Source: a virus (lineage: Duplodnaviria > Caudoviricetes). Taken from it: a stretch of 55,570 nt of DNA. The notes under the pieces are model-generated. The model made no database searches. It worked only from the letters and a program-made list of their open reading frames with translations, and was not told the DNA's origin. The stretch's first letter is position 1. Each line of letters starts with the position of its first letter. Location of the stretch: positions 1 to 55,570 of the IMG/VR virus record IMGVR_UViG_3300024257_000013; one strand, 5' to 3'. The position numbers were made by a program, and so were the translations under genes. Below are positions 15,145 through 53,944 of this stretch, one piece after another.

Positions 15145-15392
15145 TGTTTTCTTCCAAATCTTTCAGTACAAAATCTTTTAGTACGGACAGTTTCTTATTT
15201 GATTCTTTTGAAGAGATAATAGAAAAAGTTCTTCCTAAAGTAAAAGTATCTTCTGGACCAGGCGCTGAAAGAGCTGTACTGCAGCGTAATCAGCCACTAG
15301 ACAAAAAAATAGAGTATACTCAGAACCTTCAACAAGAAGATGAAGAGCTACTTAGCATAGTATCTCTTCTACTAAAATCAGGTATTCTGTAA
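15144..15392 (+). CDS. Hypothetical protein
   Basis: 82 aa, coupled to both neighbours by TAATG overlaps; FSSKSFSTKSFST repeat. Confidence 0.6.
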   Translation: MFSSKSFSTKSFSTDSFLFDSFEEIIEKVLPKVKVSSGPGAERAVLQRNQPLDKKIEYTQNLQQEDEELLSIVSLLLKSGIL

Positions 15393-18300
15393 TGGCGTGT
15401 AATGTAGAAAAAATTCTTAAAGAGCATAATGTAATTACGTTGTCATTAGATAACAGTAGATTACCTAAAGGCAACAGAAAAGGGTTTAACATTATAAGCG
15501 ATCCTGAAGCTTCTAAAGAAGAGAAGCGTAAAGCTGTTCATGACCTTATTCAGATCAACCTTAAAACCAGGCAAACCTTGCTGTTAGATGCTTACGGCAA
15601 AACAGCTCTTAAAGAAGAGTATGTTATACAGCCTCCTAGCAGGGAAATTGAACTAAAGAACCAAAAAATTATTGAGAGAATATCAGCTACTGCAGCAGAG
15701 AATATTCTGAACAACTCAATACTAATTGGAGGACTTAGAAGGTTATCTGATTTCATAGAGACCAGCTCAAAGAAACTGAACGTACTGTTTCACAATTCTA
15801 AATCCTTGTCTGATTATCTCAACAACACTAAAGAAGGCGCTATTGCCTACTCAAAATACTCCAAAGAAGATAAACAATTTGTTGAGTATATTAAAAGAAA
15901 TACCGAAGGGTTTAATTCTTTTGTACATGGAGATAAAGATAACGCACCTATTCTCCCATACATGACAGACAGTAGATTCGGTAACTTCACAAAAGGTAAA
16001 GCTATAGGTAATAGAGCTGTACTGGATGAGTATACGGATATGTATCAATATTTACTGCAGAAAGCAGAAACAGGCGGTTACACAGTAGATCCTATGGTTA
16101 TTGAAGCTACTGGTATCGCTATTACTAATTGGTTAGCTACTCAAGCTACCGGTACGTTTACAAACACCTGGGAAGACATAAATAGAATATTTGGTAGAAA
16201 TACTAGTGAATGGGTAAAACCAAAACACGAAGAAAAATTTACTGATATAGGAGCTGTACAGTCTAGTGTCATAGACAGCTTAGGTTCTGAGATATTTAGT
16301 ATGCTTGGATTTAAAGCTAAAGTATCTGATGTCGATGGTTCTGTAGCACCTCGGTTAAAAGTAGCATTAGGAGCACTGGCTGTAGCTTATATGATAGACA
16401 GAGGAACGCTGCAACAAACCGCTGTACCTGCTACAGACTTTCCTTCAGATACAGGAACTATCAGCGAATCACAGCAGACAGTTGGTAAAGATACTCTTTT
16501 TGTAAAAATAGTTAGTCAGGAAAATATTGAAACCTTATCTGAAATAAGAAAAGCTACTGAAGCTGTTCCTGAACTTCTTAATCTAGAAAACTATAAAGTA
16601 TTTCCCGGGAGTAAACCTTCTACACATACTCCTAAGTTTATGAGAGGTACTCGTCAACAGACACCAGAAAGAACCGGTAACACTATTAGAAATATACAAC
16701 AGGATAAGTGGACTGTTAGAAATAGTACTGTAAATAAATTCTTTGAGCTGGATGAAGCAACACAAGCTATTGTCACAGGAAGAAATACTGACATAGAAAA
16801 TGCGCATGTAACTCAACGTAAAAGTTTACAAGCTGTTAATAACAGAATTGATCGTAGTCTGGACAATATTAAAGAATTTATTGGGAAGTTACGTAAACCT
16901 CAACAATCTTTCTACATGAAGTATTTTGTATCCCGGGGTGGAAGACTGTTTATAGACAATAATACTATTGACCCTATTCAAGACAAGCTAATCAGGCACA
17001 TGATTGGTTTAAAAAGTCACCTGGTATCTGTAGAAGGTCTTAAGCTAAATAGGACATTTCAACTAGCAGTAGCTCAAGCATTTGGTTATGGAATAGATAA
17101 ACATCATTTTCTTGATAGTTTGAAAGAATTTAAAAGTATTCTTGCAGCTACAAAGGATGCTGTTAATGCATTAAAGAAAAATGTTAACGACAGGACCCCA
17201 GAAGACATAATAGCTATACAAGAAGCTGTTAAGTTAGGTGGAGAAAAAATGCATACATTTGAAGCATTATTGGCTTTAACTAAGTATTCTCCTGATAAGC
17301 CTTTCTTAACTACCTTGGGTATTGAAACAGATGCTGTTACCAGCGGAGTGATGATTGGTAATATGTTATCACTATTAGACGGTGTAGAAGACCTGGCTTC
17401 TGGTGGAGTATTTTTAGACAATGTAACTACTGATTATCCTTCTCATGCTGCTTTGCCTAATTCTATGGACTTGTATCAGAAACTTACAGCTAAATGGCAG
17501 AAAGTTATATCTGATATGGCTAACAAGAACAAAAACAACGCAAAAGCCATATCGATTGCTACTAGAAACATTATTGGTTCATTCATAAAAGAAGGAAATC
17601 TTATATCTGATATAGGACGTGAATTTAGTAAAGATCCTTTAATGGTCACCAATTATGGATCTGCGCTAAAAAAAGCTAAAGAAAATTTTGCATACGCAGT
17701 ACTGAACCAGTTTTATTCCAAAATAGCCAAAGCAGAAGATGCAGAACTAATGGTATTAGGGAATGCGTTAGAGACACTTATAAAAGAAATTATACCTATA
17801 GATCAGAAGCTGGATAAAGATTTTGTACTTACACACAAACAGCAGGATACTTTTATAAAGTCAGTATTAGAAGTTCATGGTGAAGCTCTTACCATGTCTC
17901 TAGAAGACAGACTTGGTAACTTTATAAAATATAGAGAGAAAATTAATAAAGCTTTTCAAATTATGTTTTATACGTTTAACAAAAAATTTGAAATTGCTTT
18001 AGAAGCTAAAAAAGAGGAACTTGGTAGAATACCGTCATTAGAGGAGACTGAAGCCCTCTTAGACACTTTAAGAAAGTTTATGCCCATTGTCAAAGGACCA
18101 CTTTCTAAAGGCTTAGATGACGGAATAATAGCCATAAAGGGAGGTTTAAGAAGAAACTATATCAAAGCATACCAAGTACAGATAAGTTTTAGTAGACCTT
18201 TAAGGAATACTGCACGAGAAGAAGGTACTTCCAGTATCACTAGTTATGCAAAATCTTATAAGTTCCTTGACCCGGGAGTAGCTGGAACAGTTACTAATAT

Positions 18301-21300
18301 TCACAATATTGACTCTGTTATACAGCAAGCTGTTTTATCTGCTTTTGCAGCATTAAATGTACACGATGCAGCAGTGTACTCTTTAGCTGATGTAGCTAAA
18401 GGTACAGGTGTCTATAATAAATCTTTTATAGATGTAGTTACTTCATATGACTTAATGCAGGAAGTATCAGATAGTCTTAATAATGTTATCGAAAGTGTTA
18501 GAGCACTACCTGAAGAAGAACGTAGTCAAATTTCTACTCATTTGTCAGAAAACTTGTACAGCAAAAATGACAAAGGTAAAAGAATTGCCTTTAACTTAAT
18601 TCAAGAAATAGCAGAATTAAAAGAATTGCATACAGAAGTTAAAGCAGCCAGGGAGAGCTTATTAAAAGATCATTCTCATATAGCTGTTAACCATTCTGCA
18701 TATCATGATTCAGAATCTGTGTACATTTTAGAAACTAAAAATGTTAAGCCTTTAGATTCTTCTGATGGGCCAATAGCGGCTGTTTTTAAAGAAATAGAAA
18801 GCTTTAAAGGTTCTATCGGAAGAAGCATAGATTTTGAAAATTTTACCTCTTTATTTTCAGGAGTTATAGATGCTACTACTATTCAAACTATCTTCAGTAA
18901 GCTTGAAGATGTAGGAGTAGAAAAAGAATCTACAGCACATACAGCTACCTTACAGGAACTGTTAGATAACTTTATCAAGTTACAACATGATATCGATATT
19001 AAAGTGGGTGAAAGCGGAGACACTACAATAGGTGCTCAGCGTACCTTTACAGATGGTACTCAAGATATTCATGTATTAGGTTCAGTAACAGGCAATAAAA
19101 ACAACGTAAAGATGTCTGCACAAGAAACGTATGTGCACGAACTTATACATGCCGTAACTGAGTACGCAGTAGATACAAATTCCGGTTTACGTAGAGGTTT
19201 AAAACAAATATTTGCACTTGCTGAGAAAAATACTACTTGGAGAGATTTTCTTCCTAAAGGTAAAGATTTTACAGCAGATGAAGTACGAACAGCTAAAGAG
19301 ACTTATGAGTATTTGTTTAATAATAGTCGTAGTTATAAAGATCCTGTTTCTGGTCGTACTGTAAATCCTTATTTGCATGAATTTGTAGCTTATGGATTAT
19401 CTAATGAAAGATTTGCAGCTAAATTATCTACATTAACAGTAAGAAATAGAACTAAGCGTGAAGGTAGTTTATGGGAACGTTTAGTGCAATGGTATAAAGA
19501 CGCACTTAAATATGCAGCTAATAAGCTACGGGGTATTGAAAATCTTACTGCAGATAAAGCTTTAAGAAAAATGTTAGATCAAGCCTTAACTGCTAGTGAA
19601 AAACAAAAGCGCAGTATTTTTAGGATGTTTAATGTACTTGATTCTGCTAATCAGATAACGGTAGATAAAATTCATGCTTGGATATTTGCACCTGCAGCTA
19701 AGTATGCTAGGAAAGATAAGCCTAAACGTATTCCGGGTAGAGTACTTCATACTTTGGCAGGATTATTAGATTCTAAAATATATGCTGAATTAGGTTCTGT
19801 TATCAAACAAGTTAGTCGCAATATAGGAATAACAGAAAGAAATTTCTTTGTTAAATTAGTGAGAGAAATACAGCAGCAAAAAGGAAATAACGCTGTATGG
19901 CATTCTTTGCTTCGAGCTTCTAAGCATATTGTAGACCAAGCACGTATGCGTGAAGCTACAAACGTAATTAAACATATTCGTAAAGGTTTTCATACAGAAG
20001 TTACTACAGAAGAAAGTGAAGCTCTTTATAAAATATTTATAAAGCTGGATTTAGTGTCTTTGTTGGATACTGCTGAAAGAGACAAATATACGCCCGATAA
20101 TCTACTGGGGCTTCTAAGCTCAGATAGCTCTTTGGACCTTTTAATTACTTCTTTAGAAAAACAAATTAGAAAAGAATATAAAGCTAATGGTTTGCTTTAT
20201 ATAAACCAGGCAGAAGGTTTAGGCTCAAAAATGGCTACTAGCAATACCGTAGACTGGCAATTAAATAATGCTTACGCAATCGCTAATGCAGCGGGATTAG
20301 GTATTGAAGTATCTGGTGACTTGAATAGGGCTACTAAACTTATTGATGAACTGGCTTCCTTGTATGGTATTAAACACAGTAAACAAGATTATCGAAATTT
20401 AGCCCATGCTGTATATAAGAGGGAAAATGCTGCTGATGGTTTAGATAATGGAATAGCTAAGTTATTTTCTTTGCACAAGTTAAATAAAGAAATGTCTTTA
20501 GAAAAACTGTTTCACAATAATAAAATGCAAACAGAAAAAGGATACTCTAAAGAAACATTTGATCCCAGAGTAGATGTAAGAACAGCAACTGCTGACCAGA
20601 TAGACATACTAATTTCTGAAGGTTACACCTATGCTGCTGCGGATAAAAAACCTCTTACGATGGATATCTCTGATAAATCAGAAAAAAGATGGTTAATGGT
20701 AAATCCTAATGGAGGTGACGCTACCTGGGTTAAAGCTATTGTTTCTCTTACAGCTAAAAAACATCAAGGTGAAGCATTGCAGGATATCTACCAGGCTATG
20801 GACCCTGAAATGAGCTATAGAGATGCTAAAATTAAAACTGCTGGAGTAATAGCAGAAAAACGTTTAAAGGCTTATAGGCAGCTTTCTCAGCGTGTTAAAC
20901 CAACAGAAACAGTAAAGTTGCAGCCTATTGTGTCTGAGCACGGTAATGCAGTTAATCTACGTTACTTAATGTCTGAACACAATAAAGACAGTTTGCTCAA
21001 CCGGGATAACAGATTTGATCATGTATTAGGACGTATGTTTGGAAGTATTGTGGATAAAACAGGCTCTACAGAAATAAACAAAAAAGTATTAATAGAAGCT
21101 AAAAAAGAATTTGAGCAAAACAAAAGTACGCAATTACGTGAATATGTGAATTTTACTGAAACTTCTTCAGATCCTGAAATAGCAGAAATGTATAAACTTA
21201 TGCCTCTAGAAATGAAAAAGGCTATTAAAAGTATTTGGGGTGAAAATGAAGATGTTTATATTAGGGAGGAATTCTTAAATCTGATATTCGGTTTCAGAAA

Positions 21301-22330
21301 AATGAAATTTACAGATAAGAAAAATTTTGTTGGAGGTACAATTAGAAGTGTCAATAAAACACTAACATGGCTTTTAGGCAATACACTATTTCCTAAAGCA
21401 CCTAATGTAGATATTGAAAAGTTGTGGATAGCAACAGTTAAAATAGCTAAAGAGAATATTGTCATAAAGACAGGTGTTATTCTATTACCTAACTTTGTCA
21501 GTAATAATCTTATCCTTTTTGCTAAAGGGGTAAATCCCAGAAATATAGCAACATACCAGGCAGAAGCACTAGTAGAGTTGGAAAACTATCAGAAAGATTT
21601 GTCTGAAAGAGATATTACAGAAAGAGAATTACAAAGTAATATCAAGTTATCTGCAAATAAACGTAAAAAGTTAGAACTTAAGCTAAGTAGGTTACAAGAC
21701 AGTGTAGACAACAATCCAGTAGCAGAATTAATTGATGAAGGCATTTTTCAAAATATCATAGAAGATATTAATTTAGAAGAGGATATATATAGTGGTAAAG
21801 CAAAATTAGCAGAAAGAGCAAAGGAGCTTGCTGATAAGTATTTACATGAATATGTAGCTACCTCCTATAAATACCTATATATGGATAAAACTACTGGACC
21901 TTACAAATTACTGCTTAGGGCTACACAGGTAAGTGATTTCATTGCTAGATTTGCTTTGTACAAGCATAGAACATCAAACGTCCCTAAGAAGTTTAAATCA
22001 AGAGAAACTAGACTAGAATACAAACAAAAGGTTTTAAAAGAAGTTGTAGAAACTTTTGTAAACTATGATGTAGTTACTTCTAAAGAGCTTCAAACTATTA
22101 ATGATCTTGGAGCTATTATGTTTACAAAGTTCTTTTTCAGAAAATTTAAAATTATATTTAGTCTCTTTACTGAACGTGCTGCTTCTATGATTAGTATTCT
22201 TGCAGTAGAAAAAGCATTTGGAGAGGCAGATTCTATTGACGATAATCCGTTTAATATTTGGTCTAGAGTCAATTTTCCTGATGATATTGTGGAAGAAGCT
22301 GCTCAGCTTCCCGCAATAAGCTGGCTATAG
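15392..22330 (+). CDS. Virion-encapsidated RNA polymerase (N4 gp50-like catalytic and C-terminal part)
   Basis: T7-superfamily motifs: SRGGRL, motif A ETDAVTSG (~17325), motif B REFSKDPLMVTNYG (~17620), motif C NVHDAA (~18360). HELIH...HEFVAYG zincin-like region. C-terminal VSDFIARF...FVNYD as in N4-like vRNAPs. Confidence 0.9.
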   Translation: MACNVEKILKEHNVITLSLDNSRLPKGNRKGFNIISDPEASKEEKRKAVHDLIQINLKTRQTLLLDAYGKTALKEEYVIQPPSREIELKNQKIIERISATAAENILNNSILIGGLRRLSDFIETSSKKLNVLFHNSKSLSDYLNNTKEGAIAYSKYSKEDKQFVEYIKRNTEGFNSFVHGDKDNAPILPYMTDSRFGNFTKGKAIGNRAVLDEYTDMYQYLLQKAETGGYTVDPMVIEATGIAITNWLATQATGTFTNTWEDINRIFGRNTSEWVKPKHEEKFTDIGAVQSSVIDSLGSEIFSMLGFKAKVSDVDGSVAPRLKVALGALAVAYMIDRGTLQQTAVPATDFPSDTGTISESQQTVGKDTLFVKIVSQENIETLSEIRKATEAVPELLNLENYKVFPGSKPSTHTPKFMRGTRQQTPERTGNTIRNIQQDKWTVRNSTVNKFFELDEATQAIVTGRNTDIENAHVTQRKSLQAVNNRIDRSLDNIKEFIGKLRKPQQSFYMKYFVSRGGRLFIDNNTIDPIQDKLIRHMIGLKSHLVSVEGLKLNRTFQLAVAQAFGYGIDKHHFLDSLKEFKSILAATKDAVNALKKNVNDRTPEDIIAIQEAVKLGGEKMHTFEALLALTKYSPDKPFLTTLGIETDAVTSGVMIGNMLSLLDGVEDLASGGVFLDNVTTDYPSHAALPNSMDLYQKLTAKWQKVISDMANKNKNNAKAISIATRNIIGSFIKEGNLISDIGREFSKDPLMVTNYGSALKKAKENFAYAVLNQFYSKIAKAEDAELMVLGNALETLIKEIIPIDQKLDKDFVLTHKQQDTFIKSVLEVHGEALTMSLEDRLGNFIKYREKINKAFQIMFYTFNKKFEIALEAKKEELGRIPSLEETEALLDTLRKFMPIVKGPLSKGLDDGIIAIKGGLRRNYIKAYQVQISFSRPLRNTAREEGTSSITSYAKSYKFLDPGVAGTVTNIHNIDSVIQQAVLSAFAALNVHDAAVYSLADVAKGTGVYNKSFIDVVTSYDLMQEVSDSLNNVIESVRALPEEERSQISTHLSENLYSKNDKGKRIAFNLIQEIAELKELHTEVKAARESLLKDHSHIAVNHSAYHDSESVYILETKNVKPLDSSDGPIAAVFKEIESFKGSIGRSIDFENFTSLFSGVIDATTIQTIFSKLEDVGVEKESTAHTATLQELLDNFIKLQHDIDIKVGESGDTTIGAQRTFTDGTQDIHVLGSVTGNKNNVKMSAQETYVHELIHAVTEYAVDTNSGLRRGLKQIFALAEKNTTWRDFLPKGKDFTADEVRTAKETYEYLFNNSRSYKDPVSGRTVNPYLHEFVAYGLSNERFAAKLSTLTVRNRTKREGSLWERLVQWYKDALKYAANKLRGIENLTADKALRKMLDQALTASEKQKRSIFRMFNVLDSANQITVDKIHAWIFAPAAKYARKDKPKRIPGRVLHTLAGLLDSKIYAELGSVIKQVSRNIGITERNFFVKLVREIQQQKGNNAVWHSLLRASKHIVDQARMREATNVIKHIRKGFHTEVTTEESEALYKIFIKLDLVSLLDTAERDKYTPDNLLGLLSSDSSLDLLITSLEKQIRKEYKANGLLYINQAEGLGSKMATSNTVDWQLNNAYAIANAAGLGIEVSGDLNRATKLIDELASLYGIKHSKQDYRNLAHAVYKRENAADGLDNGIAKLFSLHKLNKEMSLEKLFHNNKMQTEKGYSKETFDPRVDVRTATADQIDILISEGYTYAAADKKPLTMDISDKSEKRWLMVNPNGGDATWVKAIVSLTAKKHQGEALQDIYQAMDPEMSYRDAKIKTAGVIAEKRLKAYRQLSQRVKPTETVKLQPIVSEHGNAVNLRYLMSEHNKDSLLNRDNRFDHVLGRMFGSIVDKTGSTEINKKVLIEAKKEFEQNKSTQLREYVNFTETSSDPEIAEMYKLMPLEMKKAIKSIWGENEDVYIREEFLNLIFGFRKMKFTDKKNFVGGTIRSVNKTLTWLLGNTLFPKAPNVDIEKLWIATVKIAKENIVIKTGVILLPNFVSNNLILFAKGVNPRNIATYQAEALVELENYQKDLSERDITERELQSNIKLSANKRKKLELKLSRLQDSVDNNPVAELIDEGIFQNIIEDINLEEDIYSGKAKLAERAKELADKYLHEYVATSYKYLYMDKTTGPYKLLLRATQVSDFIARFALYKHRTSNVPKKFKSRETRLEYKQKVLKEVVETFVNYDVVTSKELQTINDLGAIMFTKFFFRKFKIIFSLFTERAASMISILAVEKAFGEADSIDDNPFNIWSRVNFPDDIVEEAAQLPAISWL

Positions 22331-22331
22331 T

Positions 22332-22362
22332 AAAAATGTAGGGGATTGCTCCCCTACATATT
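22332..22362. terminator. Terminator between the convergent late and middle blocks
   Basis: ATGTAGGGGA-ttgc-TCCCCTACAT 10-bp stem flanked by A/T runs. Confidence 0.75.
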
Positions 22363-22522
22363 ACGGTTTAGAAGTAATGTGATCTTTAACTATTAAAAAC
22401 ACTATAATTACTACTACGGCATTTGTTACAGCTAGAATCAATATAGGTACAAGAAAGGTAAGAGTACCTAAAAATAAAACTACTGATATAGTCACAGCAG
22501 TTGCTTTTAAGGTGTCTAACAC
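22361..22522 (-). CDS. Small hydrophobic membrane protein (53 aa; not in ORF track)
   Basis: GTG start after AGGAG; MLDTLKATAVTISVVLFLGTLTFLVPILILAVTNAVVVIIVFLIVKDHITSKP. Confidence 0.6.
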   Translation of the reverse strand: MLDTLKATAVTISVVLFLGTLTFLVPILILAVTNAVVVIIVFLIVKDHITSKP

Positions 22523-22533
22523 CAGCCTTCTCC

Positions 22534-23247
22534 TTAACTTTCTTTCTTCTTGCCGAAAGCACGTTTCTTGCCGAAGCTAGGCTTCTTTTCAGAAGTATCA
22601 GCTCCACCAGCAGAGTCACCAGCAGTCCCTTTTGGACGTTTGTCCGAGATCCACTGTTTAACCTGCTCTGGTGTTACTTCATCCTTGAATGTGATGTTAT
22701 CCAGGTACTTTGATTCACGTTCGAAAGCTGAACCAGCTTCTTCATCGTTAACAATTTCTTCTGCAGAAGCGTTATCACCAGCACGAAAGAAAGCTTTAAT
22801 AACTTTCTTTTCGGTGATATTTCCCTGGTAAATGCCATACTCCATTTGAACACGCATCATGACATCAATATCAGCCAGGTCTTCCAGAGCAGCTACAGTC
22901 TTAATAGCTGCTTTCTTACCGATTGGAAGATCGATTTCAATAGGATCAGATACTTCTTCAACATCAGCAATGATCATCAGCTGATTAAAGATTTTGGCTC
23001 CAATTTTATTAGGAGAACCATCTTTGTTGGTAATACGTAGATTGCCGTAGATGACTTGTTTTTGCCCTGCATGATCAACGAACATATCAATCGAAGTAGA
23101 TCCACCTTTGGACACACTTACGATTGGAGCAAGTAAAGTTACTGGGTAAACACCAGACGACGTAATGTGGTTACTGCCACCTTGTTTTACATCTTCTGCT
23201 TTTTTTGAGGATTTGAAGAAGCTCATATATGCTGTATTCCTACACAC
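22534..23247 (-). CDS. Single-stranded DNA-binding protein (N4 gp45-like)
   Basis: SGVYPVTL...SKGGS motif, flexible tail ending KKPSFG..F, and position downstream of the AAA gene at the end of the replication block. Confidence 0.7.
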   Translation of the reverse strand: MCRNTAYMSFFKSSKKAEDVKQGGSNHITSSGVYPVTLLAPIVSVSKGGSTSIDMFVDHAGQKQVIYGNLRITNKDGSPNKIGAKIFNQLMIIADVEEVSDPIEIDLPIGKKAAIKTVAALEDLADIDVMMRVQMEYGIYQGNITEKKVIKAFFRAGDNASAEEIVNDEEAGSAFERESKYLDNITFKDEVTPEQVKQWISDKRPKGTAGDSAGGADTSEKKPSFGKKRAFGKKKES

Positions 23248-23284
23248 TCAGTGTGTTGTTTTAGTTTGACGGGAAAATTCCCTA

Positions 23285-23410
23285 TTAAATACCACTTAAT
23301 GTATTATTAAGTGAATGTAATTTTATAAAATTGTTTCTGGCTATAACAGCCTCTACAAGAGAATGAAATAATCCAACATGAAATGTTTTACTATTATTTC
23401 TTATTTGTAC
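23285..23410 (-). pseudogene. AP2-domain remnant of a homing endonuclease
   Basis: Start-less frame VQIRNNSKTFHVGLFHSLVEAVIARNNFIKLHSL resembles the AP2 domains of 27757-28497. Confidence 0.6.
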
Positions 23411-23414
23411 ACCC

Positions 23415-23730
23415 CTTGAATAAATAGCCTACCTCTAGATGTCTCCCATCGAAGATTCAAAAACGAAAATACATTCGTTTCATTAAATATAGGCGTTAAA
23501 TAAATAGCTTTTAACCGACAAAGATACAATATCTGTCTGTTATGTAACAACGTATATGGCCAATCAGAGTCAGTAGATCAGAGCACAGTATATTGAAATA
23601 AAAAGGTTAAAAACGTTAAATAAATAGTTATGTGCGAATAGTCGCTACGCGTCGTTAGATGGAGCTGTGTCTAGAACAAGCTACTATCCCGAACCTTGCA
23701 GTTTGAAAATTGCACATAACGTTAAATTAG
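23415..23730 (-). ncRNA. Candidate array of three stem-closed RNA domains separated by TATTTATTTAAC linkers
   Basis: Linkers at 23615-26 and 23495-506 are identical; 23415-26 and 23721-30 are variants. Each unit has complementary ends. Confidence 0.6.
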
Positions 23731-24392
23731 CCTAAAGACCAAGCAGTAGCTTCAGATTGTCTGCTTTGCAACATATCTAAATGTTTTTGTAAGTCGAAGT
23801 CTTTGTTATCGATACTGTCTGGTAATTTTTTCACAGTAGTTCTGGCACACATTTTTGGATTACGGTAATGAATTACACGGTTTTTACCTTTAAGTTCCAA
23901 AAATACAGACTCATCAACTTCAGAAAGTATTCCACCTTTCTTACCATAACTTCCACCAGCATTAACCAGTGAGTAGCCAACAGTATCTTCGTTGTATAAG
24001 GCATGTGATACCAGAACAACATTAAAAGCATCAGCCAGGTCCCTTTCGATGAAATCGACAAATTCTTTAATTTCTGTATTAATTTTTCCATAAGGAAAAG
24101 ACTTAATAGTTGCCAGACAGTAACCTTCAATATCTAATAAAATTTTGGATATTGAATCAATAGCTACTGTTTTTGGTAACTCACCCATTTTGTTTTCATA
24201 CTTTTCAACAGTATTTGAGATTATATCGATAAGTTCACTGACTGATGTGTAATCAGGAACATTGATATGAGGTTGTGCAAAAGGGTATTTTTTACCGTCT
24301 CTTGCGATTACCAGGGTGTCTGTTAAATTTTGTAACAGGGTTGTTTTACCGATGGCCGGAAGAGCTGCTACCAAAAGTTTTACATTGCTCAT
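23727..24392 (-). CDS. AAA_24 / Sak4-like ATPase (N4 gp44-like)
   Basis: Walker A ALPAIGKTT, Walker B VAIDSIS, VLVSH. Confidence 0.8.
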   Translation of the reverse strand: MSNVKLLVAALPAIGKTTLLQNLTDTLVIARDGKKYPFAQPHINVPDYTSVSELIDIISNTVEKYENKMGELPKTVAIDSISKILLDIEGYCLATIKSFPYGKINTEIKEFVDFIERDLADAFNVVLVSHALYNEDTVGYSLVNAGGSYGKKGGILSEVDESVFLELKGKNRVIHYRNPKMCARTTVKKLPDSIDNKDFDLQKHLDMLQSRQSEATAWSLG

Positions 24393-25195
24393 TATTTTTC
24401 CTCTTTAAGGCGTTGGTCATGCCAAATGACATGAGTTAATTCTGGGTGTGCTTTACTGGCTTCAACACTGTCTACACACAACTCTAAAAGAGAGTTTATG
24501 AACGCATAGTCTTCTTCCGTAATAGTCTCGGTAAGCACTGTGACTGTCGGTGGATAGGACTTTAGCTGTTTACCTGTCTTTTCACTGATTGCACCTTCAA
24601 TATGGCGATTTACATAGACCAAACGTATACGTGTGGGTGTATAACCTAATCGAACTAAAGCTGCAGCATAAGTAAGCAGTTGGTAACGGTAAGTAGAGTT
24701 AAACGCTCTGGGGGTAGTCTTTGAATGGTATGTTTTATAATCAACAATCATACACTCGTCTTTTTCTCCCTGGAGAGCATCAAGTTGACCACCAATATAG
24801 TAACCATCGCGTATTGGAGCTACAACAAATTTCTCTGTTTCGAGAAACGCATTTTCAAGCACATAGTCATTTACCAGGTGTTCAGCCATTTCAACATAAT
24901 GGTGTTTTACAGCATCAGGATCGTAGTCTTCTTTATCTTCAAAAGACTCTATGTACTCAGTGATAATATTGGTATCAACCGGTAATTGTTTGGCAACTTG
25001 ATCAGCGCAGTAATGAACTACTGTACCTAATACTGTTGACGTATTATATTCGAAGTCTTTAATACCAAGCACTTCTGATCGATACCAAAAATGTGGTTTA
25101 TCCGCAAATTTAGGGAATTGACTCGGGCTAATTTTAAATATGCAGTCATCCGGCATATCGGCTTTGTGGTCGTTATACTGCAGAGGGTTAGTCAT
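24392..25195 (-). CDS. PD-(D/E)XK (Cas4/RecB-like) nuclease
   Basis: ISPS...GTVVH...E...GQLD...IVDYKT...YQLLTYA motifs; start at MTNPLQ overlapping the mazG stop. Confidence 0.8.
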   Translation of the reverse strand: MTNPLQYNDHKADMPDDCIFKISPSQFPKFADKPHFWYRSEVLGIKDFEYNTSTVLGTVVHYCADQVAKQLPVDTNIITEYIESFEDKEDYDPDAVKHHYVEMAEHLVNDYVLENAFLETEKFVVAPIRDGYYIGGQLDALQGEKDECMIVDYKTYHSKTTPRAFNSTYRYQLLTYAAALVRLGYTPTRIRLVYVNRHIEGAISEKTGKQLKSYPPTVTVLTETITEEDYAFINSLLELCVDSVEASKAHPELTHVIWHDQRLKEEK

Positions 25196-27756: not shown

Positions 27757-28497
27757 TTAGGCATCACTAAACTCCTCTATATGTTGTTCTAAATCTTTAT
27801 CACTAAAGTTTCGTTTACTGCTTGAGCCTGTAGCAATAATAAATTCTTCTCTTCTTATTGCAGCTATTAAAGCAGTTTTAAAATACCCACTGAATATTTT
27901 CTTTTTCTTTATAGAGATTTGCGCTACCCAAGAATTTTTTAAGTGTCTTATTCTTTTAGGTCTACTCACTCCTATATACCCAGAGGTATTTGTAGTCAGT
28001 AGTAATTTACCTGTATTAGACTCAGTACGTTTTGCAGTATTATTAGTTGTATGGGGTAGGTTGTTATCACGTACATAGGTATCATAAGCTTGAGCAGCTT
28101 CTTTTATACAGTCGTAGTACCCTACTTTTATTACCTTTGATTTTACGCTTATTGACACCTCCCATTTACTGTATTTCTTATTCCAGCTAACTCCTCTATA
28201 TCCGGATTTATTATGGGAATAAAGAATTCTAGTATTTGAAGATTGAACTATTTGGTTTGTCCATCTGCAGTTATCTGGGCAGTAGTTATCATTATTATTT
28301 TTTCTATCTATAGAAGAATTTTCGTTATAATTATTAGATAAAGCCCAAGATTTAAAGGCTAAATAAGAATTTTTCCATTCTGTACAAACTTCAATATTTT
28401 TATAAGTTTTTTCGTATTGTTTTGCTCTACACCTATTTTTCATGCCTTTCCAAATATTATGAAGTCTAGTATCAGTATCCCCGTGAATTTCTCTCAT
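27757..28497 (-). mobile_element. Free-standing HNH homing endonuclease with two AP2 domains
   Basis: RLHNIWKGMKNRC...SIDRKNNNDNYCPDNCRW (HNH); NKSGYRGV and NTSGYIGV AP2 repeats. Confidence 0.85.
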
Positions 28498-44694: not shown

Positions 44695-44730
44695 TTTTAT
44701 TTTCTTTCATGTATAGGTACAATATCAATA
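44681..44730 (-). repeat. Direct repeat copy 1 (upstream region plus start codons)
   Basis: TTGTTTTTCGTCATTTTT...CTTTCATGTATAGGTACAATA.CAATA is also present at 45742-45792. Confidence 0.8.
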
Positions 44731-45741: not shown

Positions 45742-45792
45742 TTGTTTTTCGTCATTTTTTCTTTCCTTTCATGTATAGGTACAATAGCAATA
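45742..45792 (-). repeat. Direct repeat copy 2
   Basis: Near-identical to 44681-44730; here it opens an 11-codon mini-ORF (MTKNNMFLYVS). Confidence 0.8.
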
Positions 45793-46241: not shown

Positions 46242-46652
46242 ACTTCAAAATGTTCAGTTATGTTTGTCAGTCAGGAGACCACAGCCTACCATGAATACCG
46301 GTAATACTGCTATTTTCAATTAGCTTCTGTATTTCTTTACCCTTAATAGGGCCATGAGCAGTAATGACCTTTAACACCTTTTCTGTTTTACTAATCATTA
46401 GATTTGTACCATGCCATAGGAAGTTTCCTATCGGAAACAGTTACTCTAGATTTCCACCACATAGGTACAAATATAGCTAACAGCAGTAGTGCATTACCTA
46501 GCTCTTTTAATATGTAATCATTCATTTTTGTTTACTCCTCTTATTTTTTCTATAAAATATATTTCATTGACTATTCTTTATTCTAACGCTTTTAAAGGTA
46601 TACCATGCATCCATTTATGTTCTACCCCCATCATTAAAAATTCATGTCCTTA

Positions 46653-48019: not shown

Positions 48020-49042
48020 TTAGCTTAGTGCATATGAACTGTTCAGGATGTCTTCACTTAAGTCTGAGCTGTATTTATTAATTACAGCTTCTTGACCTGA
48101 AATATCAAATAATACATTTTTGAGAATATCCATATCAGCAAGTTCTGCCATAACTTCTCTGTATATTTTGACTAATGCTCCTGCATTACAAGGATGTACT
48201 CCATAAGAATCGTGAATAGTAGTAATATCAAAGTCACACCTAAGTACAACTTCTTCCAGTACTTCGGAATCTAACCAATGACATATGTTAGCTGGTAAAC
48301 TTGCATCATTACTACGAGCCATACACACCTCAAAACGTTGAGTAAACGTACTATGATCAAGTTCATCTACTTCAATTCTTGCATCAATAAAGTCTTTAAC
48401 ATTGTATACCACAGTATTTCTATCTAACCCTAACCAGATATACTGAGAACTGAGAGGTTCTACATAGCTATTGATAACTTCTTTAGCTACTTCAGCACCA
48501 GGAGTAATTTCTGATAATACGTTATAAAAAACTTTTAATTGAGTATCGTTAAATATCCTTTTAGGCACAGCTTTAGAATTATAATTGTGAGTCATAATTG
48601 CATCTTTAACATGTATTCGTTTTAATCCTTCACCTGTTTTAACTAATTTAATACGCAATTGAGGAGATAATTGCTTATTCATTAGCTTTACAGTATTAGT
48701 GTAAAGATCAGGTCTTTTACCAGTATTAATTAAACCACACTGCTTAGCAGTCTCTTTACAACCACTTAAGATAGCCATCATTTGATGTCCACTATTTACA
48801 CTGTCTAAATGCATGATGTGGCCTGTAGGTTTACCGTTTAAGGTGTCTCTATAGGCTATTAATGCTTTACGGTATAGTAATGGTTCATCTGCATATCTAA
48901 TGATTTTCCATAGTTGATCTAATGTCCTTTCATTAACCCATGTTAACCTTTTATCCCAGGTTAATTTATCTTTACCATATGTATTGGCAATATCAATCTT
49001 AAGCCAATCAAGAGGAGTAAATTTATCAGTAATATTACACAT
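48020..49042 (-). CDS. RNA polymerase II subunit 2 (N4 gp16-like)
   Basis: WLKIDIANTYGKDK, LDSVNSG (motif A), R..VK.AIMT..Y (motif B), ANICH..D, TIHDS (motif C), SSYALS end. Confidence 0.9.
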   Translation of the reverse strand: MCNITDKFTPLDWLKIDIANTYGKDKLTWDKRLTWVNERTLDQLWKIIRYADEPLLYRKALIAYRDTLNGKPTGHIMHLDSVNSGHQMMAILSGCKETAKQCGLINTGKRPDLYTNTVKLMNKQLSPQLRIKLVKTGEGLKRIHVKDAIMTHNYNSKAVPKRIFNDTQLKVFYNVLSEITPGAEVAKEVINSYVEPLSSQYIWLGLDRNTVVYNVKDFIDARIEVDELDHSTFTQRFEVCMARSNDASLPANICHWLDSEVLEEVVLRCDFDITTIHDSYGVHPCNAGALVKIYREVMAELADMDILKNVLFDISGQEAVINKYSSDLSEDILNSSYALS

Positions 49043-49357: not shown

Positions 49358-50248
49358 CTAATCTGTTATTAGTTGTTTATCGCTAAATTCAAGTAAAGAA
49401 CGTTTATATTTTGTACCTTGTAAATTTACATGATAACCAAGACTATAAATTCTTCCTCTAAAGTCTTTTTTATGTACAAAATAGAACTTGTTACCAGCAT
49501 TAATGAGCTTATTGCAAGTGTCTCTAGACTGTTTAACATGCAAATAAAACTGTTTAAGAGCTTTTTCCTTTAATGGTTTGGTAGGCAGTTCTTCTTGCTC
49601 AAGCATTTCTTCATTAATGCTGAAGCTAACTTGTTGTAACTGGTTAATGGCACAAGTATCTATCCAGTAATCATGTTGATTTAATCTGCCAAGTATTACT
49701 GAATCAGTAGCCGTTAGATATCCACCACGGTAACTGGTACTATCCCAATCTCTTGGGATGCATAACATTGGAGGTAAGAAAGAAGTTCTTTCAATAAACT
49801 CTAGTGCAGTAGTACTTAACGTATAATGACTTTCAATAGCTAATGTATCAGTATGATTTGTAGTAGTTGCTCTATGATGTAGAGAATACAAACCAACATT
49901 ACTGCAGACAGCTATCAATTCGCTTGCAGTTTTAAGTCCTTCTAACTGATCATCAAAATCCAGATAATTACTCAATAAGGCCACTGCTTGCTGTATTGGC
50001 ACAATACCTTCTAAAGGTAAAATGACAATATGCATTTCAATAGCTAAATCCAGGGTATTAAAAGGACTTAGTTGCTGAATACGAGTATTTTTGCTGTCGT
50101 AATATATCTTTGCTCTGTACTCTGCAATTGCTTCAGCCATAGGCCAAAGTAGACTATCACTACCACAATCTATATCTTTTAAGATAACGGCATGTATATT
50201 CTTTCTGCTGTACATTTCTTCAACGATTTCTTGTTCAATCTTCATCAT
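49358..50248 (-). CDS. RNA polymerase II subunit 1 (N4 gp15-like)
   Basis: LPPMLCIP, GGYLT, DFRGRIYSLGYHVNLQG. Confidence 0.9.
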   Translation of the reverse strand: MMKIEQEIVEEMYSRKNIHAVILKDIDCGSDSLLWPMAEAIAEYRAKIYYDSKNTRIQQLSPFNTLDLAIEMHIVILPLEGIVPIQQAVALLSNYLDFDDQLEGLKTASELIAVCSNVGLYSLHHRATTTNHTDTLAIESHYTLSTTALEFIERTSFLPPMLCIPRDWDSTSYRGGYLTATDSVILGRLNQHDYWIDTCAINQLQQVSFSINEEMLEQEELPTKPLKEKALKQFYLHVKQSRDTCNKLINAGNKFYFVHKKDFRGRIYSLGYHVNLQGTKYKRSLLEFSDKQLITD

Positions 50249-53804: not shown

Positions 53805-53863
53805 GTGGCCATAGCTCAGTTGGTAGAGCAAATGCCTGTGGCGCATACTGCCTGGGTTCGACC
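53805..53863 (+). pseudogene. Truncated tRNA-His(GTG)
   Basis: GTGGCCA-TA-GCTCAGTTGGTAGAGC D-arm, ATGC-CTGTGGC-GCAT anticodon arm, GGTTCGA; 3' T-stem and acceptor strand missing. Confidence 0.7.
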
Positions 53864-53869
53864 AATTAT

Positions 53870-53944
53870 ATCCCCGTGGACAACCGGTCAAGTCACTGGG
53901 CTTTCATCCCAGCATAGCGAGTTCGATTCTCGCCGGGGATACCA
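53870..53944 (+). tRNA. tRNA-Glu(TTC)
   Basis: ATCCCCG/CGGGGAT acceptor stem, CTGGG-CTTTCAT-CCCAG anticodon arm, GCGAG-TTCGATT-CTCGC T arm, encoded ACCA. Confidence 0.95.

What the first reader, a model, noticed from the sequence alone, without database searches (positions are those of the whole stretch)
23415..23730. Array of three different stem-closed RNA domains punctuated by a conserved 12-nt linker
On the transcribed (minus) strand, right after the AAA stop, the order is: TTTAAC, unit A [GTTATGTGC...GCACATAAC, 94 nt, 23627-23720], TATTTATTTAAC, unit B [GTTTTTAACC...GGTTAAAAGC, 108 nt, 23507-23614], TATTTATTTAAC, unit C [GCCTAT...GTAGGC, 68 nt, 23427-23494], TATTTATTCAAG. Every unit starts with G, ends with C and closes a helix exactly at the linker. 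Units B and C use G-U pairs that work only on this strand. Each unit has a further helix next to the 3' closing strand (GGATAGTAGCT/AGCGACTATTC; GACAGATA/TATCTTTGTC; GATG/CATC). The interiors are unrelated. This is the inverse of CRISPR logic: an unstructured repeat with structured variable units. Inference: a precursor cut at AU-rich linkers into tRNA-sized small RNAs, for example decoys or antitoxin mimics against host defences, or guides for the neighbouring PD-(D/E)XK nuclease and ATPase.
Basis: partly seen in the sequence, partly recalled or inferred. Interest (0 to 1): 0.85.

Follow-up and report, generated by a model that had tools for sequence, protein, structure and literature searches.

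The report
Phage array of structured small-RNA cassettes
Between two replication genes of an uncultured marine N4-like phage lie three unrelated, self-closing RNA-like modules joined by a conserved AU-rich junction, and related phages carry zero to four such modules in the same place, so this looks like a swappable set of small-RNA genes of unknown function.

Summary
On the minus strand, straight after the stop codon of a Sak4-like AAA_24 gene, lie TTTAAC, unit A (23627-23720), a 12-nt linker, unit B (23507-23614), the same linker, unit C (23427-23494) and a degenerate linker. Each unit's first and last bases pair for 9, 10 and 6 bp, ending exactly at the junctions.

Relatives show the same grammar: an A/T-rich ...AAC, then G...stem-closed unit...C, then TAT(Y)TA. 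It occurs in 11 of 55 distinct versions of this gap, with 1-4 units per phage (window included); the other 44 have none. Units B and C have diverged homologues elsewhere whose closing stems changed on both strands. Nothing matches Rfam or cultured phages.

The same slot elsewhere holds larger non-coding inserts, small ORFs, or a tRNA with a 137-nt insertion.

Best reading: an accessory, modular cluster of small structured-RNA genes before the ssb gene. The junctions would define the RNA ends, by RNase cleavage (favoured) or as minimal phage-RNAP promoter and stop signals. Processing, RNA ends and function are not shown. One metatranscriptome contig starts exactly at unit B's first G. The decoy and guide ideas have no support.

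The parts
23727..24392 (-). Upstream gene: Sak4-like AAA_24 ATPase (ssDNA-annealing type); its stop codon TAA is at 23727-23729
   Evidence: Pfam AAA_24 E 1.6e-10; PHROG 124 'Sak4-like ssDNA annealing protein' E 1.7e-20
23721..23726 (-). 5' junction half-site TTTAAC directly before unit A
   Evidence: The same A/T-rich ...AAC or ...TAC element precedes the units in relatives
23627..23720 (-). Unit A, 94 nt, G...C, 9-bp closing stem; no homologue found
   Evidence: no homologue among the loci fetched by then, L001-L145
23615..23626 (-). Linker 1, TATTTATTTAAC (3' signal TATTTA plus 5' signal TTTAAC)
23507..23614 (-). Unit B, 108 nt, 10-bp closing stem with one G-U pair; homologous to L011 unit 1 and, weakly, to L074 unit 2
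   Evidence: (z 8.0). The RNA contig of run X16 ends exactly at 23614
23495..23506 (-). Linker 2, TATTTATTTAAC
23427..23494 (-). Unit C, 68 nt, 6-bp closing stem with one G-U pair; homologous to the single unit of L005; conserved hairpin YCUUC-GAUG-GGAGR
   Evidence: (z 5.3)
23415..23426 (-). Degenerate third junction TATTTATTCAAG (3' signal kept, 5' half decayed)
23314..23414 (-). About 100 nt of AT-rich non-coding sequence with small hairpins (for example 23365-23400, an 8-bp stem); possibly a decayed cassette
   Evidence: not analysed further
23293..23313 (-). Weak terminator-like hairpin (7-bp stem, 7-nt loop) followed by GTATTTAAT. It sits where relatives carry a CGTAA...TTACG hairpin plus T-run
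   Evidence: Read. Relatives: 13 of 20 insert-bearing gaps against 1 of 17 empty gaps have such a hairpin. The window's own hairpin did not pass that filter or the scan
23242..23282 (-). ssb leader: hairpin GGGAATTTTCCC (23271-23282) and hairpin ACACAC-TGA-GTGTGT (23242-23256)
   Evidence: The equivalent hairpin (AGGGTTGACACCCT type) is present in nearly all relatives, with or without units
22534..23226 (-). Downstream gene: single-strand DNA-binding protein
   Evidence: PHROG 743 'single strand DNA binding protein' E 7.4e-15; no Pfam hit

Best explanation
The three units are separate small structured-RNA genes ('cassettes'). They lie in the untranslated stretch after the last gene of the polymerase / exonuclease / Sak4 transcription unit and before the ssb gene of an N4-like marine phage.

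Each cassette has a common grammar: an A/T-rich 5' signal ending in AAC, an RNA whose first G and last C close a helix, and a 3' signal TAT(Y)TA. Where cassettes abut, the 3' and 5' signals fuse into the 12-nt linker.

I infer that the region is transcribed with the upstream genes. I further infer that the single-stranded AU-rich junctions are cut by a host endonuclease: RNase E-type inside the linker, and possibly RNase P-type at the AAC|G edge. The paired termini would then protect each released RNA from exonucleases, giving discrete stable RNAs of about 94, 108 and 68 nt, plus partly processed dimers.

The cassettes are accessory and modular. They are gained, lost and recombined among related phages. 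Each family keeps its own short interior motif, which points to a family-specific partner. What that partner is remains unknown; a host or phage protein or RNA, possibly a defence component, is a guess.

Shown: the anatomy, conservation of the grammar, compensatory change in the closing stems, variable copy number, and presence of the sequence in RNA libraries. Inferred: co-transcription, cleavage at the junctions, stability, and any trans function.
For: 1. The anatomy is far beyond chance.

2. The grammar recurs. 21 units were curated in 11 of 55 distinct gap sequences, with 1, 2, 3 or 4 per phage. All 21 start with G and end with C. The mean closing run is 7.8 bp, against 2.24 when the 5' end of one unit is tested against the 3' end of another (1 of 420 such controls reaches 9).

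3. Homologous units keep interior motifs while their closing stems differ on both strands. winB/L011U1/L074U2 show 3 of 7 closing pairs with double changes. winC/L005U show 2 of 5 closing pairs plus 1 pair in the inner hairpin. The L013U1/L074U1/L093 family shows 6 of 9.

4. Closing runs contain 7 G-U pairs among 163 pairs on the sense strand. These would be mismatches on the other strand.

5. The junction is kept (TATTTATTTAAC, TATCTATTTAAC, TATTTATTTAAT and similar) while unit interiors have diverged almost beyond alignment.

6. The 3' signal TAT(Y)TA also follows the last unit, where no unit comes next, so it is a signal in its own right.

7. Inserts come with a terminator-like hairpin before the ssb leader: 13 of 20 insert-bearing gaps against 1 of 17 empty gaps. 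This places the cassettes at the end of the upstream transcription unit.

8. In relative L037, the position directly after the same ...GTTAAC is occupied by a tRNA-like gene with a stem-closed 137-nt insertion in the anticodon loop (ARAGORN intron mode). So the slot does hold stable-RNA genes whose 5' end is normally made by processing.

9. Four RNA libraries hold 100%-identical contigs over the region. One (run X15, 23558-23950) bridges the AAA gene into units A and B. One (run X16, 23423-23614) runs exactly from unit B's first G to 4 nt past unit C.

10. [quoted passage not shown]
Against: No RNA end has been mapped. The contigs are low-depth (2.4-7.5), cannot show strand or true ends, and may include DNA carry-over.

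The families are tiny (2-4 sequences), so covariation has no statistical test, and unit A has no homologue at all.

Folding energy is unremarkable, and the whole array folds no better than shuffles.

Unit boundaries in relatives were partly chosen by me using the G...C and flank rule. The '21 of 21 G...C' figure is therefore not independent. An unbiased scan for stems of 8 bp or more finds many chance stems in this AT-rich DNA.

The exact abutment of a conserved -7 to -1 element on a +1 G, and of a stem on a U-rich tract, is at least as typical of a promoter and a terminator as of RNase E sites.

The RNase E site preference (purine, any base, cut, A/U, U, U) and the RNase P leader preferences that I used are recalled, not tested.

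No function is indicated by any result.
Confidence: 0.5

Rival explanations
1. Each cassette is its own transcription unit. The conserved A/T-rich element ending in AAC is a minimal promoter for the phage's N4-type two-subunit RNA polymerase II, with +1 at the G. The closing stem followed by UAU(Y)UA acts as a stop or pause signal. This also yields discrete small RNAs, but as primary transcripts.
For: The phage encodes both RNAPII subunits (48020-49042 and 49358-50248).

The conserved 5' element is about 7 nt, abuts the +1 G with no spacing variation, and G starts all 21 units.

ATTTAAC occurs 10 times on the sense strand and 0 times on the antisense strand of the 22.3-46.5 kb region, ranking 1 of 140 same-composition heptamers.

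The X16 RNA contig starts exactly at a G.
Against: The 12-mer, and the degenerate linker pattern with one mismatch allowed, are not enriched elsewhere in the window or in 5 relatives' records. Counts there are close to those of the reversed-pattern control.

The other minus-strand intergenic gaps lack the motif.

Seven of the 10 sense-strand ATTTAAC sites are inside coding sequence with nothing in common downstream, and 3 of the 10 are the array itself.

N4 RNAPII is reported to prefer starting at T (PMC9163698, passage), not G.

In L037 the same flank precedes a tRNA-like gene, whose 5' end would normally be made by RNase P.

The closing stems are AT-rich and enclose 50-90 nt, so they make poor terminators.
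Confidence: 0.22
2. The units act only in cis. They would be intercistronic folding, processing and stability elements that uncouple the upstream replication mRNA from the ssb mRNA, protecting the 3' end of one and setting the 5' end of the other, with no trans-acting RNA product.
For: The position lies between a stop codon and the ssb leader. The same ...TTTAAC element precedes the conserved ssb leader hairpin in relatives without units, so 'AAC followed by a stable stem' is also the grammar of the ssb mRNA 5' region. RNA contig 5' ends at 23295 and 23296 in two runs lie just upstream of that leader. Intergenic stem-loops cut by host RNases are classic in T7-type phages (recalled).
Against: 44 of 55 gap variants do without any such unit, so the units are not needed for operon expression.

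Generic stabilisers would not need three different 68-108-nt domains. They also would not keep family-specific interior motifs across phages whose closing stems have completely changed.

Cassettes occur in different orders and combinations.
Confidence: 0.17
3. The units are DNA-level elements: miniature inverted-repeat mobile elements, folded single-strand recombination sites of the integron attC kind, or by-products of recombination at a hot spot next to the phage's own recombination genes. In this reading there is no RNA role.
For: The slot is a hot spot. In relatives it also holds small ORFs, a 145-aa ORF, larger inserts and a tRNA-like gene. In L047, compared with L012, the inserted block is flanked by two TTT(A/C)AAC-like copies. 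ATTTAAC fits the attC inverse-core pattern RYYYAAC (pattern recalled). The Sak4-like annealing protein and the exonuclease gene are adjacent.
Against: Within families the terminal inverted repeats are the least conserved part and change by compensatory substitution. That is the reverse of what transposase-bound ends do.

No GTTRRRY partner site follows the units; the 3' flank is TATTTA.

The 5' and 3' flanks are not direct repeats of each other.

All 7 wobble pairs work only as RNA, or as single-stranded DNA, of the sense strand.

No integrase or transposase was seen among the 16 gene products scanned. The whole window was not scanned.
Confidence: 0.06

Closest known systems
Phage T4 RNA C and RNA D (small stable RNAs encoded beside the T4 tRNA genes)
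   Same: Both are phage-encoded small stable non-coding RNAs of still unknown function, made alongside other stable RNAs. [quoted passage not shown] Their position in the tRNA cluster and their processing with the tRNAs are recalled. Here a relative (L037) has a tRNA-like gene in the same slot.
   Different: There is no sequence or Rfam relationship. The units here are not next to tRNA genes in the window, since the only tRNA is 30 kb away. They are joined by a conserved linker, vary from 0 to 4 per phage, and belong to several unrelated families.
Polycistronic tRNA / stable-RNA precursors and 3'UTR-derived sRNAs processed by RNase E (and RNase P)
   Same: Both have stem-closed RNAs separated by short AU-rich single-stranded spacers. 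Both lie directly after a stop codon and before a terminator-like hairpin. RNase E makes defined sRNA 5' ends near stop codons in Gram-negative bacteria (PMC9438474, passages).
   Different: The units are not tRNAs. Known 3'UTR sRNAs are single and share the mRNA's terminator. Here several unrelated structured domains are strung together with a repeated junction. Processing is untested.
CRISPR arrays
   Same: Both alternate a conserved short element with variable elements, vary in unit number between relatives, and are presumed to be transcribed as a precursor.
   Different: The logic is inverted: here the repeat is unstructured and 12 nt long, and the variable parts are the structured ones. 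There are only 2 exact repeat copies. The variable parts are 68-108 nt and are conserved as families. There is no cas operon; the neighbouring PD-(D/E)XK nuclease gives only a weak Cas4-like PHROG hit (E 1.6e-7).
Type III toxin-antitoxin antitoxin arrays (ToxI-like) and phage pseudo-ToxI
   Same: Both are tandem small RNAs cut out of a repeat precursor at a short single-stranded motif, and phages are known to carry such arrays (recalled).
   Different: ToxI units are near-identical 34-36-nt repeats next to a toxin endoribonuclease gene (recalled). Here the units are unrelated to each other, are 68-108 nt, and no such toxin gene is adjacent.
Mobile regulatory cassettes of T4-type phages (promoter-early stem-loop, 'PeSL', elements) and T7 intergenic RNase III sites
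   Same: Both are short repeated regulatory or structural elements at gene boundaries in variable regions, where they can mediate modular shuffling (PeSL) or mRNA processing and stabilisation (T7). Both comparisons are recalled.
   Different: No sigma-70 promoter signal is present: there are 6 promoter-like sites against 7.2 expected, and only one weak site lies in the array. The variable cargo here is structured RNA rather than ORFs. The units are longer and more branched than single RNase III hairpins.
Integron attC sites / gene-cassette arrays
   Same: Both are arrays of imperfect palindromes 57-141 nt long whose structure, not sequence, is conserved, with short conserved junction sequences and variable cassette number (recalled).
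   Different: There is no GTTRRRY core at the 3' edge. No ORF cassettes lie between the sites. No integrase was seen among the 16 gene products scanned. Wobble pairs point to sense-strand folding.

Membership tests
tRNA / tRNA-like (Rfam RF00005, ARAGORN) | Cloverleaf detectable by ARAGORN or by the Rfam tRNA covariance model | tested here: not met
   ARAGORN finds one tRNA in the window, at 53870-53944, and none in the array. cmscan of 22900-24200 at E up to 10 gives 3 chance hits, none a tRNA and none inside the units.
Any curated Rfam family (ribozymes, riboswitches, sRNAs, Y-RNA-like, tmRNA) | Match to a covariance model at or near its gathering score | tested here: not met
   Window region: best score 17.3 bits against a gathering score of 93. 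In 20 related loci (80.7 kb) at E up to 1 there are 3 hits, all far below gathering score and outside the units.
CRISPR array | Several near-identical repeats of about 23-50 nt separated by unique spacers of similar length | tested here: not met
   The repeat is 12 nt, with 2 exact copies and 1 degenerate copy. The 'spacers' are 68-108 nt, structured, and have homologues in other phages.
CRISPR array | Associated cas genes | tested here: not met
   The neighbours are a DNA polymerase A, a PD-(D/E)XK exonuclease, a Sak4-like ATPase and an SSB. There is only a weak Cas4-like PHROG hit for the nuclease.
Type III antitoxin (ToxI-like) array | Tandem near-identical RNA repeats | tested here: not met
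   A, B and C show no mutual similarity: none of their pairs is among the 25 best-scoring of 171 unit pairs, a list that runs down to z 1.1.
Type III antitoxin (ToxI-like) array | Adjacent toxin endoribonuclease gene | tested here: not met
   The flanking genes have other assignments. The 53-aa ORF downstream of ssb has no family hit.
Integron attC array | Each site bounded by RYYYAAC and GTTRRRY core sequences (pattern recalled) | tested here: not met
   ATTTAAC fits the first pattern. The 3' boundary, however, is C followed by TATTTA, with no GTTRRRY.
Integron attC array | Integron integrase nearby | tested here: inconclusive
   None among the 16 window proteins scanned. The rest of the window was not scanned.
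MITE / transposon-derived element | Terminal inverted repeats conserved among copies, with target-site duplication | tested here: not met
   Terminal stems differ between family members through double changes, while interior motifs are kept. The 5' and 3' flanks are different sequences.
Sigma-70 promoter / intrinsic terminator cassette | -35/-10 hexamers; GC-rich hairpin plus T-run | tested here: not met
   In 22300-24500 there are 6 promoter-like sites against 7.2 expected, with one 9-of-12 site at 23514-23486. No terminator-like site falls in the array.
N4 RNAPII middle promoter | Minimal AT-rich element spanning -7 to +2 (PMC4496689) that directs initiation by RNAPII | not testable with these tools
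   Composition and length fit, and the RNAPII genes are present. No consensus for this phage clade is known, and the motif is not enriched elsewhere.
3'UTR-derived / operon-embedded processed sRNA | Lies between the stop codon and the terminator of a parent mRNA | tested here: met
   The stop codon is at 23727-23729 and the units start 6 nt later. A terminator-like hairpin follows the inserts in 13 of 20 insert-bearing relatives. The hairpin is weak in the window itself.
3'UTR-derived / operon-embedded processed sRNA | 5' end made by endonucleolytic cleavage of the parent transcript | not testable with these tools
   Only contigs of RNA libraries were available. One begins exactly at 23614.

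The most novel reading that the evidence does not exclude
A phage 'RNA-cassette array': a hypervariable locus where structurally closed, functionally distinct small RNAs carry universal 5' and 3' junction signals. Any cassette can then be expressed, released and swapped between co-infecting phages by recombination at the junctions. In effect this would be an integron-like or inverse-CRISPR library of RNA aptamers or decoys directed at host factors such as defence systems. The larger RNAs and the insertion-bearing tRNA found in the same slot of relatives would be other cargo of the same system.
Probability: 0.18. Interest if true: 0.85.

Novelty: new variant of a known kind. Interest (0 to 1): 0.62.

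Why it matters
Phage small RNAs are far less explored than phage proteins, and RNA-based counter-defence has only recently come into view.

This locus offers a compact, testable grammar for phage small-RNA genes: 5' signal, self-closed RNA, 3' signal. It comes with natural variation (0-4 cassettes, at least four sequence families, different orders) in a clade with two cultured, cassette-free relatives that infect Alteromonas and could serve as chassis.

If the junctions are processing sites, they define a portable signal for releasing stable RNAs from an mRNA. If they are promoters, they would give the first middle-promoter consensus for this group of N4-like phages.

If the RNAs prove to have no trans function, the result still documents a recombination hot spot between the sak4-like and ssb genes.

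Tried and rejected
Known RNA families. Rfam was run on the window region and on 20 related loci. Nothing relevant was found.

tRNA. ARAGORN in standard mode on the window and on 20 loci found nothing in the gaps. Only intron mode found the L037 tRNA.

Linker as a genome-wide motif. Rejected for the window and for 5 relatives' records.

Two-linker pattern in IMG/VR. No hit outside the (excluded) own record.

Family-B 15-mer in IMG/VR. Of 31 stretches, only 1 (the L011 record) is a cassette; the other 30 are unrelated, mostly coding, sequence.

Cultured phages. The array gives no match among 50,697 records at E up to 1. The two cultured relatives (Alteromonas phages PT11-V19 and R22Y) have an empty 55-56-nt gap.

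Bacterial genomes. The protein-guided scan gave one irrelevant Planctomycetota hit. I therefore had no host genome handle, and the 'unit interiors against host genomes' test could not be done.

Homologues of units A, B and C among all fetched loci, by blastn-short and nhmmer. Nothing beyond L011 and L005.

Larger inserts of L024, L027, L029 and L030. They do not align as one family.

Small ORFs in the slot. No Pfam family was found for the 145-aa ORF of L011, the 143-aa ORF of L037 or the 60-aa ORF of L005. The 57-aa ORF of L043 gave only one hit below Pfam's cut-off (Myc-LZ, E 0.0091, 16.2 bits against 24.3). The HNH look of the L011 ORF is by eye only.

A 49-aa TTG-start ORF across units B-C (23401-23550). 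Dismissed: it is not conserved and overlaps the stems.

GGAAAGAC hairpin motif of relatives. Not present in the window's gap.

RNA coverage. Parts of the array without contig cover in some runs are not evidence of anything.

Literature. Six searches found no description of such an array in N4-like phages. The LUZ7 transcriptome paper (PMC9163698, passages) reports putative sRNAs at a different locus.

Full report
WHAT IS THERE

On the minus strand the stop codon of the gene at 23727-24392 is followed by:
- TTTAAC
- unit A (23627-23720, 94 nt)
- TATTTATTTAAC
- unit B (23507-23614, 108 nt)
- TATTTATTTAAC
- unit C (23427-23494, 68 nt)
- TATTTATTCAAG

Each unit begins with G and ends with C. Its ends pair without interruption for 9, 10 and 6 bp. 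The bases just outside (C and T) cannot pair, and shifting a boundary by 1-2 nt destroys the helix. In the whole window, spans of the same lengths close this well at 15 of 55476, 2 of 55462 and 155 of 55502 positions. The exact 12-mer occurs twice in 55.6 kb, both times here; looser matches are at chance level (22 against 23.6 expected).

B and C each contain a G-U pair that exists only on this strand.

Thermodynamics adds little. Single units score z -2.9, -1.6 and -2.9, and the antisense strand folds as well. The whole array scores z -0.49.

CONTEXT

The window is an IMG/VR virus record of an N4-like phage.
- It has a virion RNA polymerase at 15392-22330.
- It has both subunits of an N4-type RNA polymerase II.
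- It has a minus-strand replication block: DNA polymerase A, a PD-(D/E)XK exonuclease, a Sak4-like AAA_24 protein, then the array, then an SSB.
- The only cultured relatives are two Alteromonas phages, whose corresponding gap is 55-56 nt.

RELATIVES

Protein-guided searches with the AAA and SSB proteins fetched loci from IMG/VR and from metagenomes. The gap between the two genes ranges from 41 to 1114 nt. It has 55 distinct versions, counting the window.

Eleven versions carry 21 small units with the same grammar. The grammar is: an A/T-rich element ending in AAC (sometimes TAC, TAT or similar), a unit that starts with G and ends with C and closes on itself, then TAT(Y)TA (ATCATA in L093).

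Numbers per phage are:
- 1 unit: L005, L019, L047, L063
- 2 units: L013, L034, L058, L074, L093
- 3 units: the window
- 4 units: L011

The mean closing run of the 21 units is 7.8 bp. When ends of different units are paired the mean is 2.24 bp, and 1 of 420 controls reaches 9. I chose some boundaries in relatives using the rule itself, so the 21 of 21 G...C count is not independent. An unbiased stem scan is noisy in this AT-rich DNA. The window's own three units were delimited by the linkers alone.

FAMILIES AND COVARIATION

All-against-all comparison finds three families:
- L013U1 with L074U1 (z 9.7), later joined by the two L093 units
- winB with L011U1 (z 8.0), and weakly with L074U2
- winC with L005U (z 5.3)

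Unit A is an orphan.

Family members share short interior motifs, while their closing stems are different sequences that still pair. Pairs with changes on both sides number 3 of 7 closing pairs, 2 of 5 closing pairs plus one inner-hairpin pair, and 6 of 9 closing pairs.

Families occur in different positions and combinations: the window is A-B-C; in L011 the B-family unit comes first of four; L074 is D-B; L013 is D plus another. So the cassettes are modular.

The linker is nearly invariant across phages whose flanking proteins are only 62-70% identical and whose unit interiors barely align. This points to selection on the junction itself. Seven G-U pairs among 163 closing pairs favour folding of the sense strand.

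THE SLOT

The other gap versions are of four kinds:
- Empty, apart from a conserved hairpin and ribosome-binding site before ssb.
- A small ORF of about 57 aa.
- Larger non-coding inserts (9 versions, about 100-600 nt) that match no Rfam family and, for the four I tried to align, do not align with each other.
- In L037, a tRNA-like gene found by ARAGORN only in intron mode. It starts directly after ...GTTAAC and carries a 137-nt insertion in the anticodon loop whose ends pair.

Insert-bearing gaps usually end with a CGTAA...TTACG hairpin plus a T-run before the ssb leader: 13 of 20, against 1 of 17 empty gaps. The window has only a weak counterpart at 23293-23313.

The cassettes therefore belong to the 3' end of the upstream transcription unit. 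They are not part of the ssb leader, and they are dispensable.

RNA EVIDENCE

Six metatranscriptomic runs hold part of the stretch. Contigs of four of them, all 100% identical, cover the region in low-depth patches.
- One contig (X15, 23558-23950) bridges the AAA gene, unit A and part of B.
- One contig (X16, 23423-23614) begins exactly at unit B's first G and ends 4 nt after unit C.
- Two runs have contig ends at 23295 and 23296, just upstream of the ssb leader.

Contigs cannot show strand, true ends or level, and DNA carry-over is possible. This is only a hint.

MECHANISM

The data best fit discrete small RNAs whose ends are set by the junction signals. I favour cleavage of a read-through transcript, for three reasons:
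- AU-rich single-stranded junctions between stable stems.
- A position directly after a stop codon, as for RNase E-made 3'UTR sRNAs (PMC9438474, passages).
- A tRNA-like gene behind the same flank in L037.

The main rival is that the A/T-rich 5' element is a minimal RNAPII promoter. N4 RNAPII uses an AT-rich -7 to +2 promoter (PMC4496689, section 2.2). The element abuts a +1 G precisely, and ATTTAAC is strand-biased 10 to 0 in the middle-gene region. However, the motif is not found before other genes, and N4 RNAPII is reported to start at T (PMC9163698, passage).

A purely cis-acting role and DNA-level elements are less likely, for the reasons listed under the rivals.

Nothing indicates what the RNAs do. 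The guide idea is weakened because the Sak4-like gene and ssb flank 44 of 55 gap variants that have no such unit.

COMPARISON AND NOVELTY

No Rfam family, no cultured-phage sequence and no paper found in six searches describes this.

It works most like a polycistronic stable-RNA cluster or a string of 3'UTR-derived sRNAs. It also recalls T4's RNA C and RNA D, whose function is still unknown (PMC9697503, passages). It is not a member of the tRNA, CRISPR, ToxI, attC, MITE or sigma-70 cassette classes, each of which fails a defining feature tested here.

I rate it a new variant of a known kind (phage small stable RNA genes), with an unusual cassette-and-junction architecture. Interest is 0.62.

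Noticed in passing
L037:819-1031 (relative; same slot as the array): A tRNA-like gene was called only by ARAGORN intron mode (tRNA-Val(aac), 76 nt). It carries a 137-nt insertion in the anticodon loop whose ends pair, extending the anticodon stem. It starts directly after the AAA stop codon plus AGTTAAC. The standard ARAGORN run and Rfam both miss it.
   Followed up: partly
L024:3161-3520, L027:3161-3503, L029:3161-3465, L030:3161-3472, L069:2190-2837, L066, L068 (relatives; same slot): Larger non-coding inserts (about 100-600 nt, GC-richer) occupy the same gap. Several contain T-loop-like GTTCGA(A/T)CC strings. They have no Rfam match, and the four that I tried to align (L024, L027, L029, L030) do not align as one family. 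L027 and L028 are identical except for one patch of about 9 nt.
   Followed up: partly
window 53806-53868 (+): Just upstream of tRNA-Glu (53870-53944) lies a stretch with a perfect D-arm-like string (GCTCAGTTGGTAGAGC) and a TGGGTTCGA string. ARAGORN does not call it a tRNA; it may be a decayed or unusual tRNA gene.
   Followed up: no
window about 44705-44724, 45767-45786 and 46455-46471 (minus strand): A repeated intergenic motif (ATTGTACCTATACATGAAAG twice, and a variant TTTGTACCTATGTGGTGGAAA) lies in the presumed early region. It may be a promoter class.
   Followed up: no
window 22300-46500: The heptamer ATTTAAC occurs 10 times on the transcribed (minus) strand and 0 times on the other, ranking 1 of 140 same-composition heptamers. 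Three copies are the array and seven lie inside genes.
   Followed up: partly
L012, L019, L034, L047, L052, L058, L093, L111 (relatives, just after the AAA stop): A conserved small hairpin with loop GAAAGA and covarying 4-5-bp stems, often preceded by CCTGAC, occurs in both unit-bearing and empty gaps. It is absent from the window's gap. It may be a hairpin-type promoter or an operator.
   Followed up: partly
window 23242-23282 (-) and equivalents in relatives: A conserved ssb leader hairpin (GGGAATTTTCCC here; AGGGTTGACACCCT type elsewhere) is preceded by a TTTAAC-like element. In the window, L005 and L011 it is followed by a 6-bp stem / 3-nt loop hairpin. RNA contigs of two runs end at 23295 and 23296.
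   Followed up: partly
window 27757-28497 (-): An HNH endonuclease gene (PHROG 374, E 2.8e-42) sits inside the replication gene block.
   Followed up: no
L018, L023, L036, L043-L046, L054, L059 (relatives; same slot): A small ORF (57 aa where I measured it, in L043), rich in charged residues, fills the AAA-ssb gap instead of RNA units in several relatives. It gave only one hit below Pfam's cut-off (Myc-LZ, E 0.0091).
   Followed up: partly
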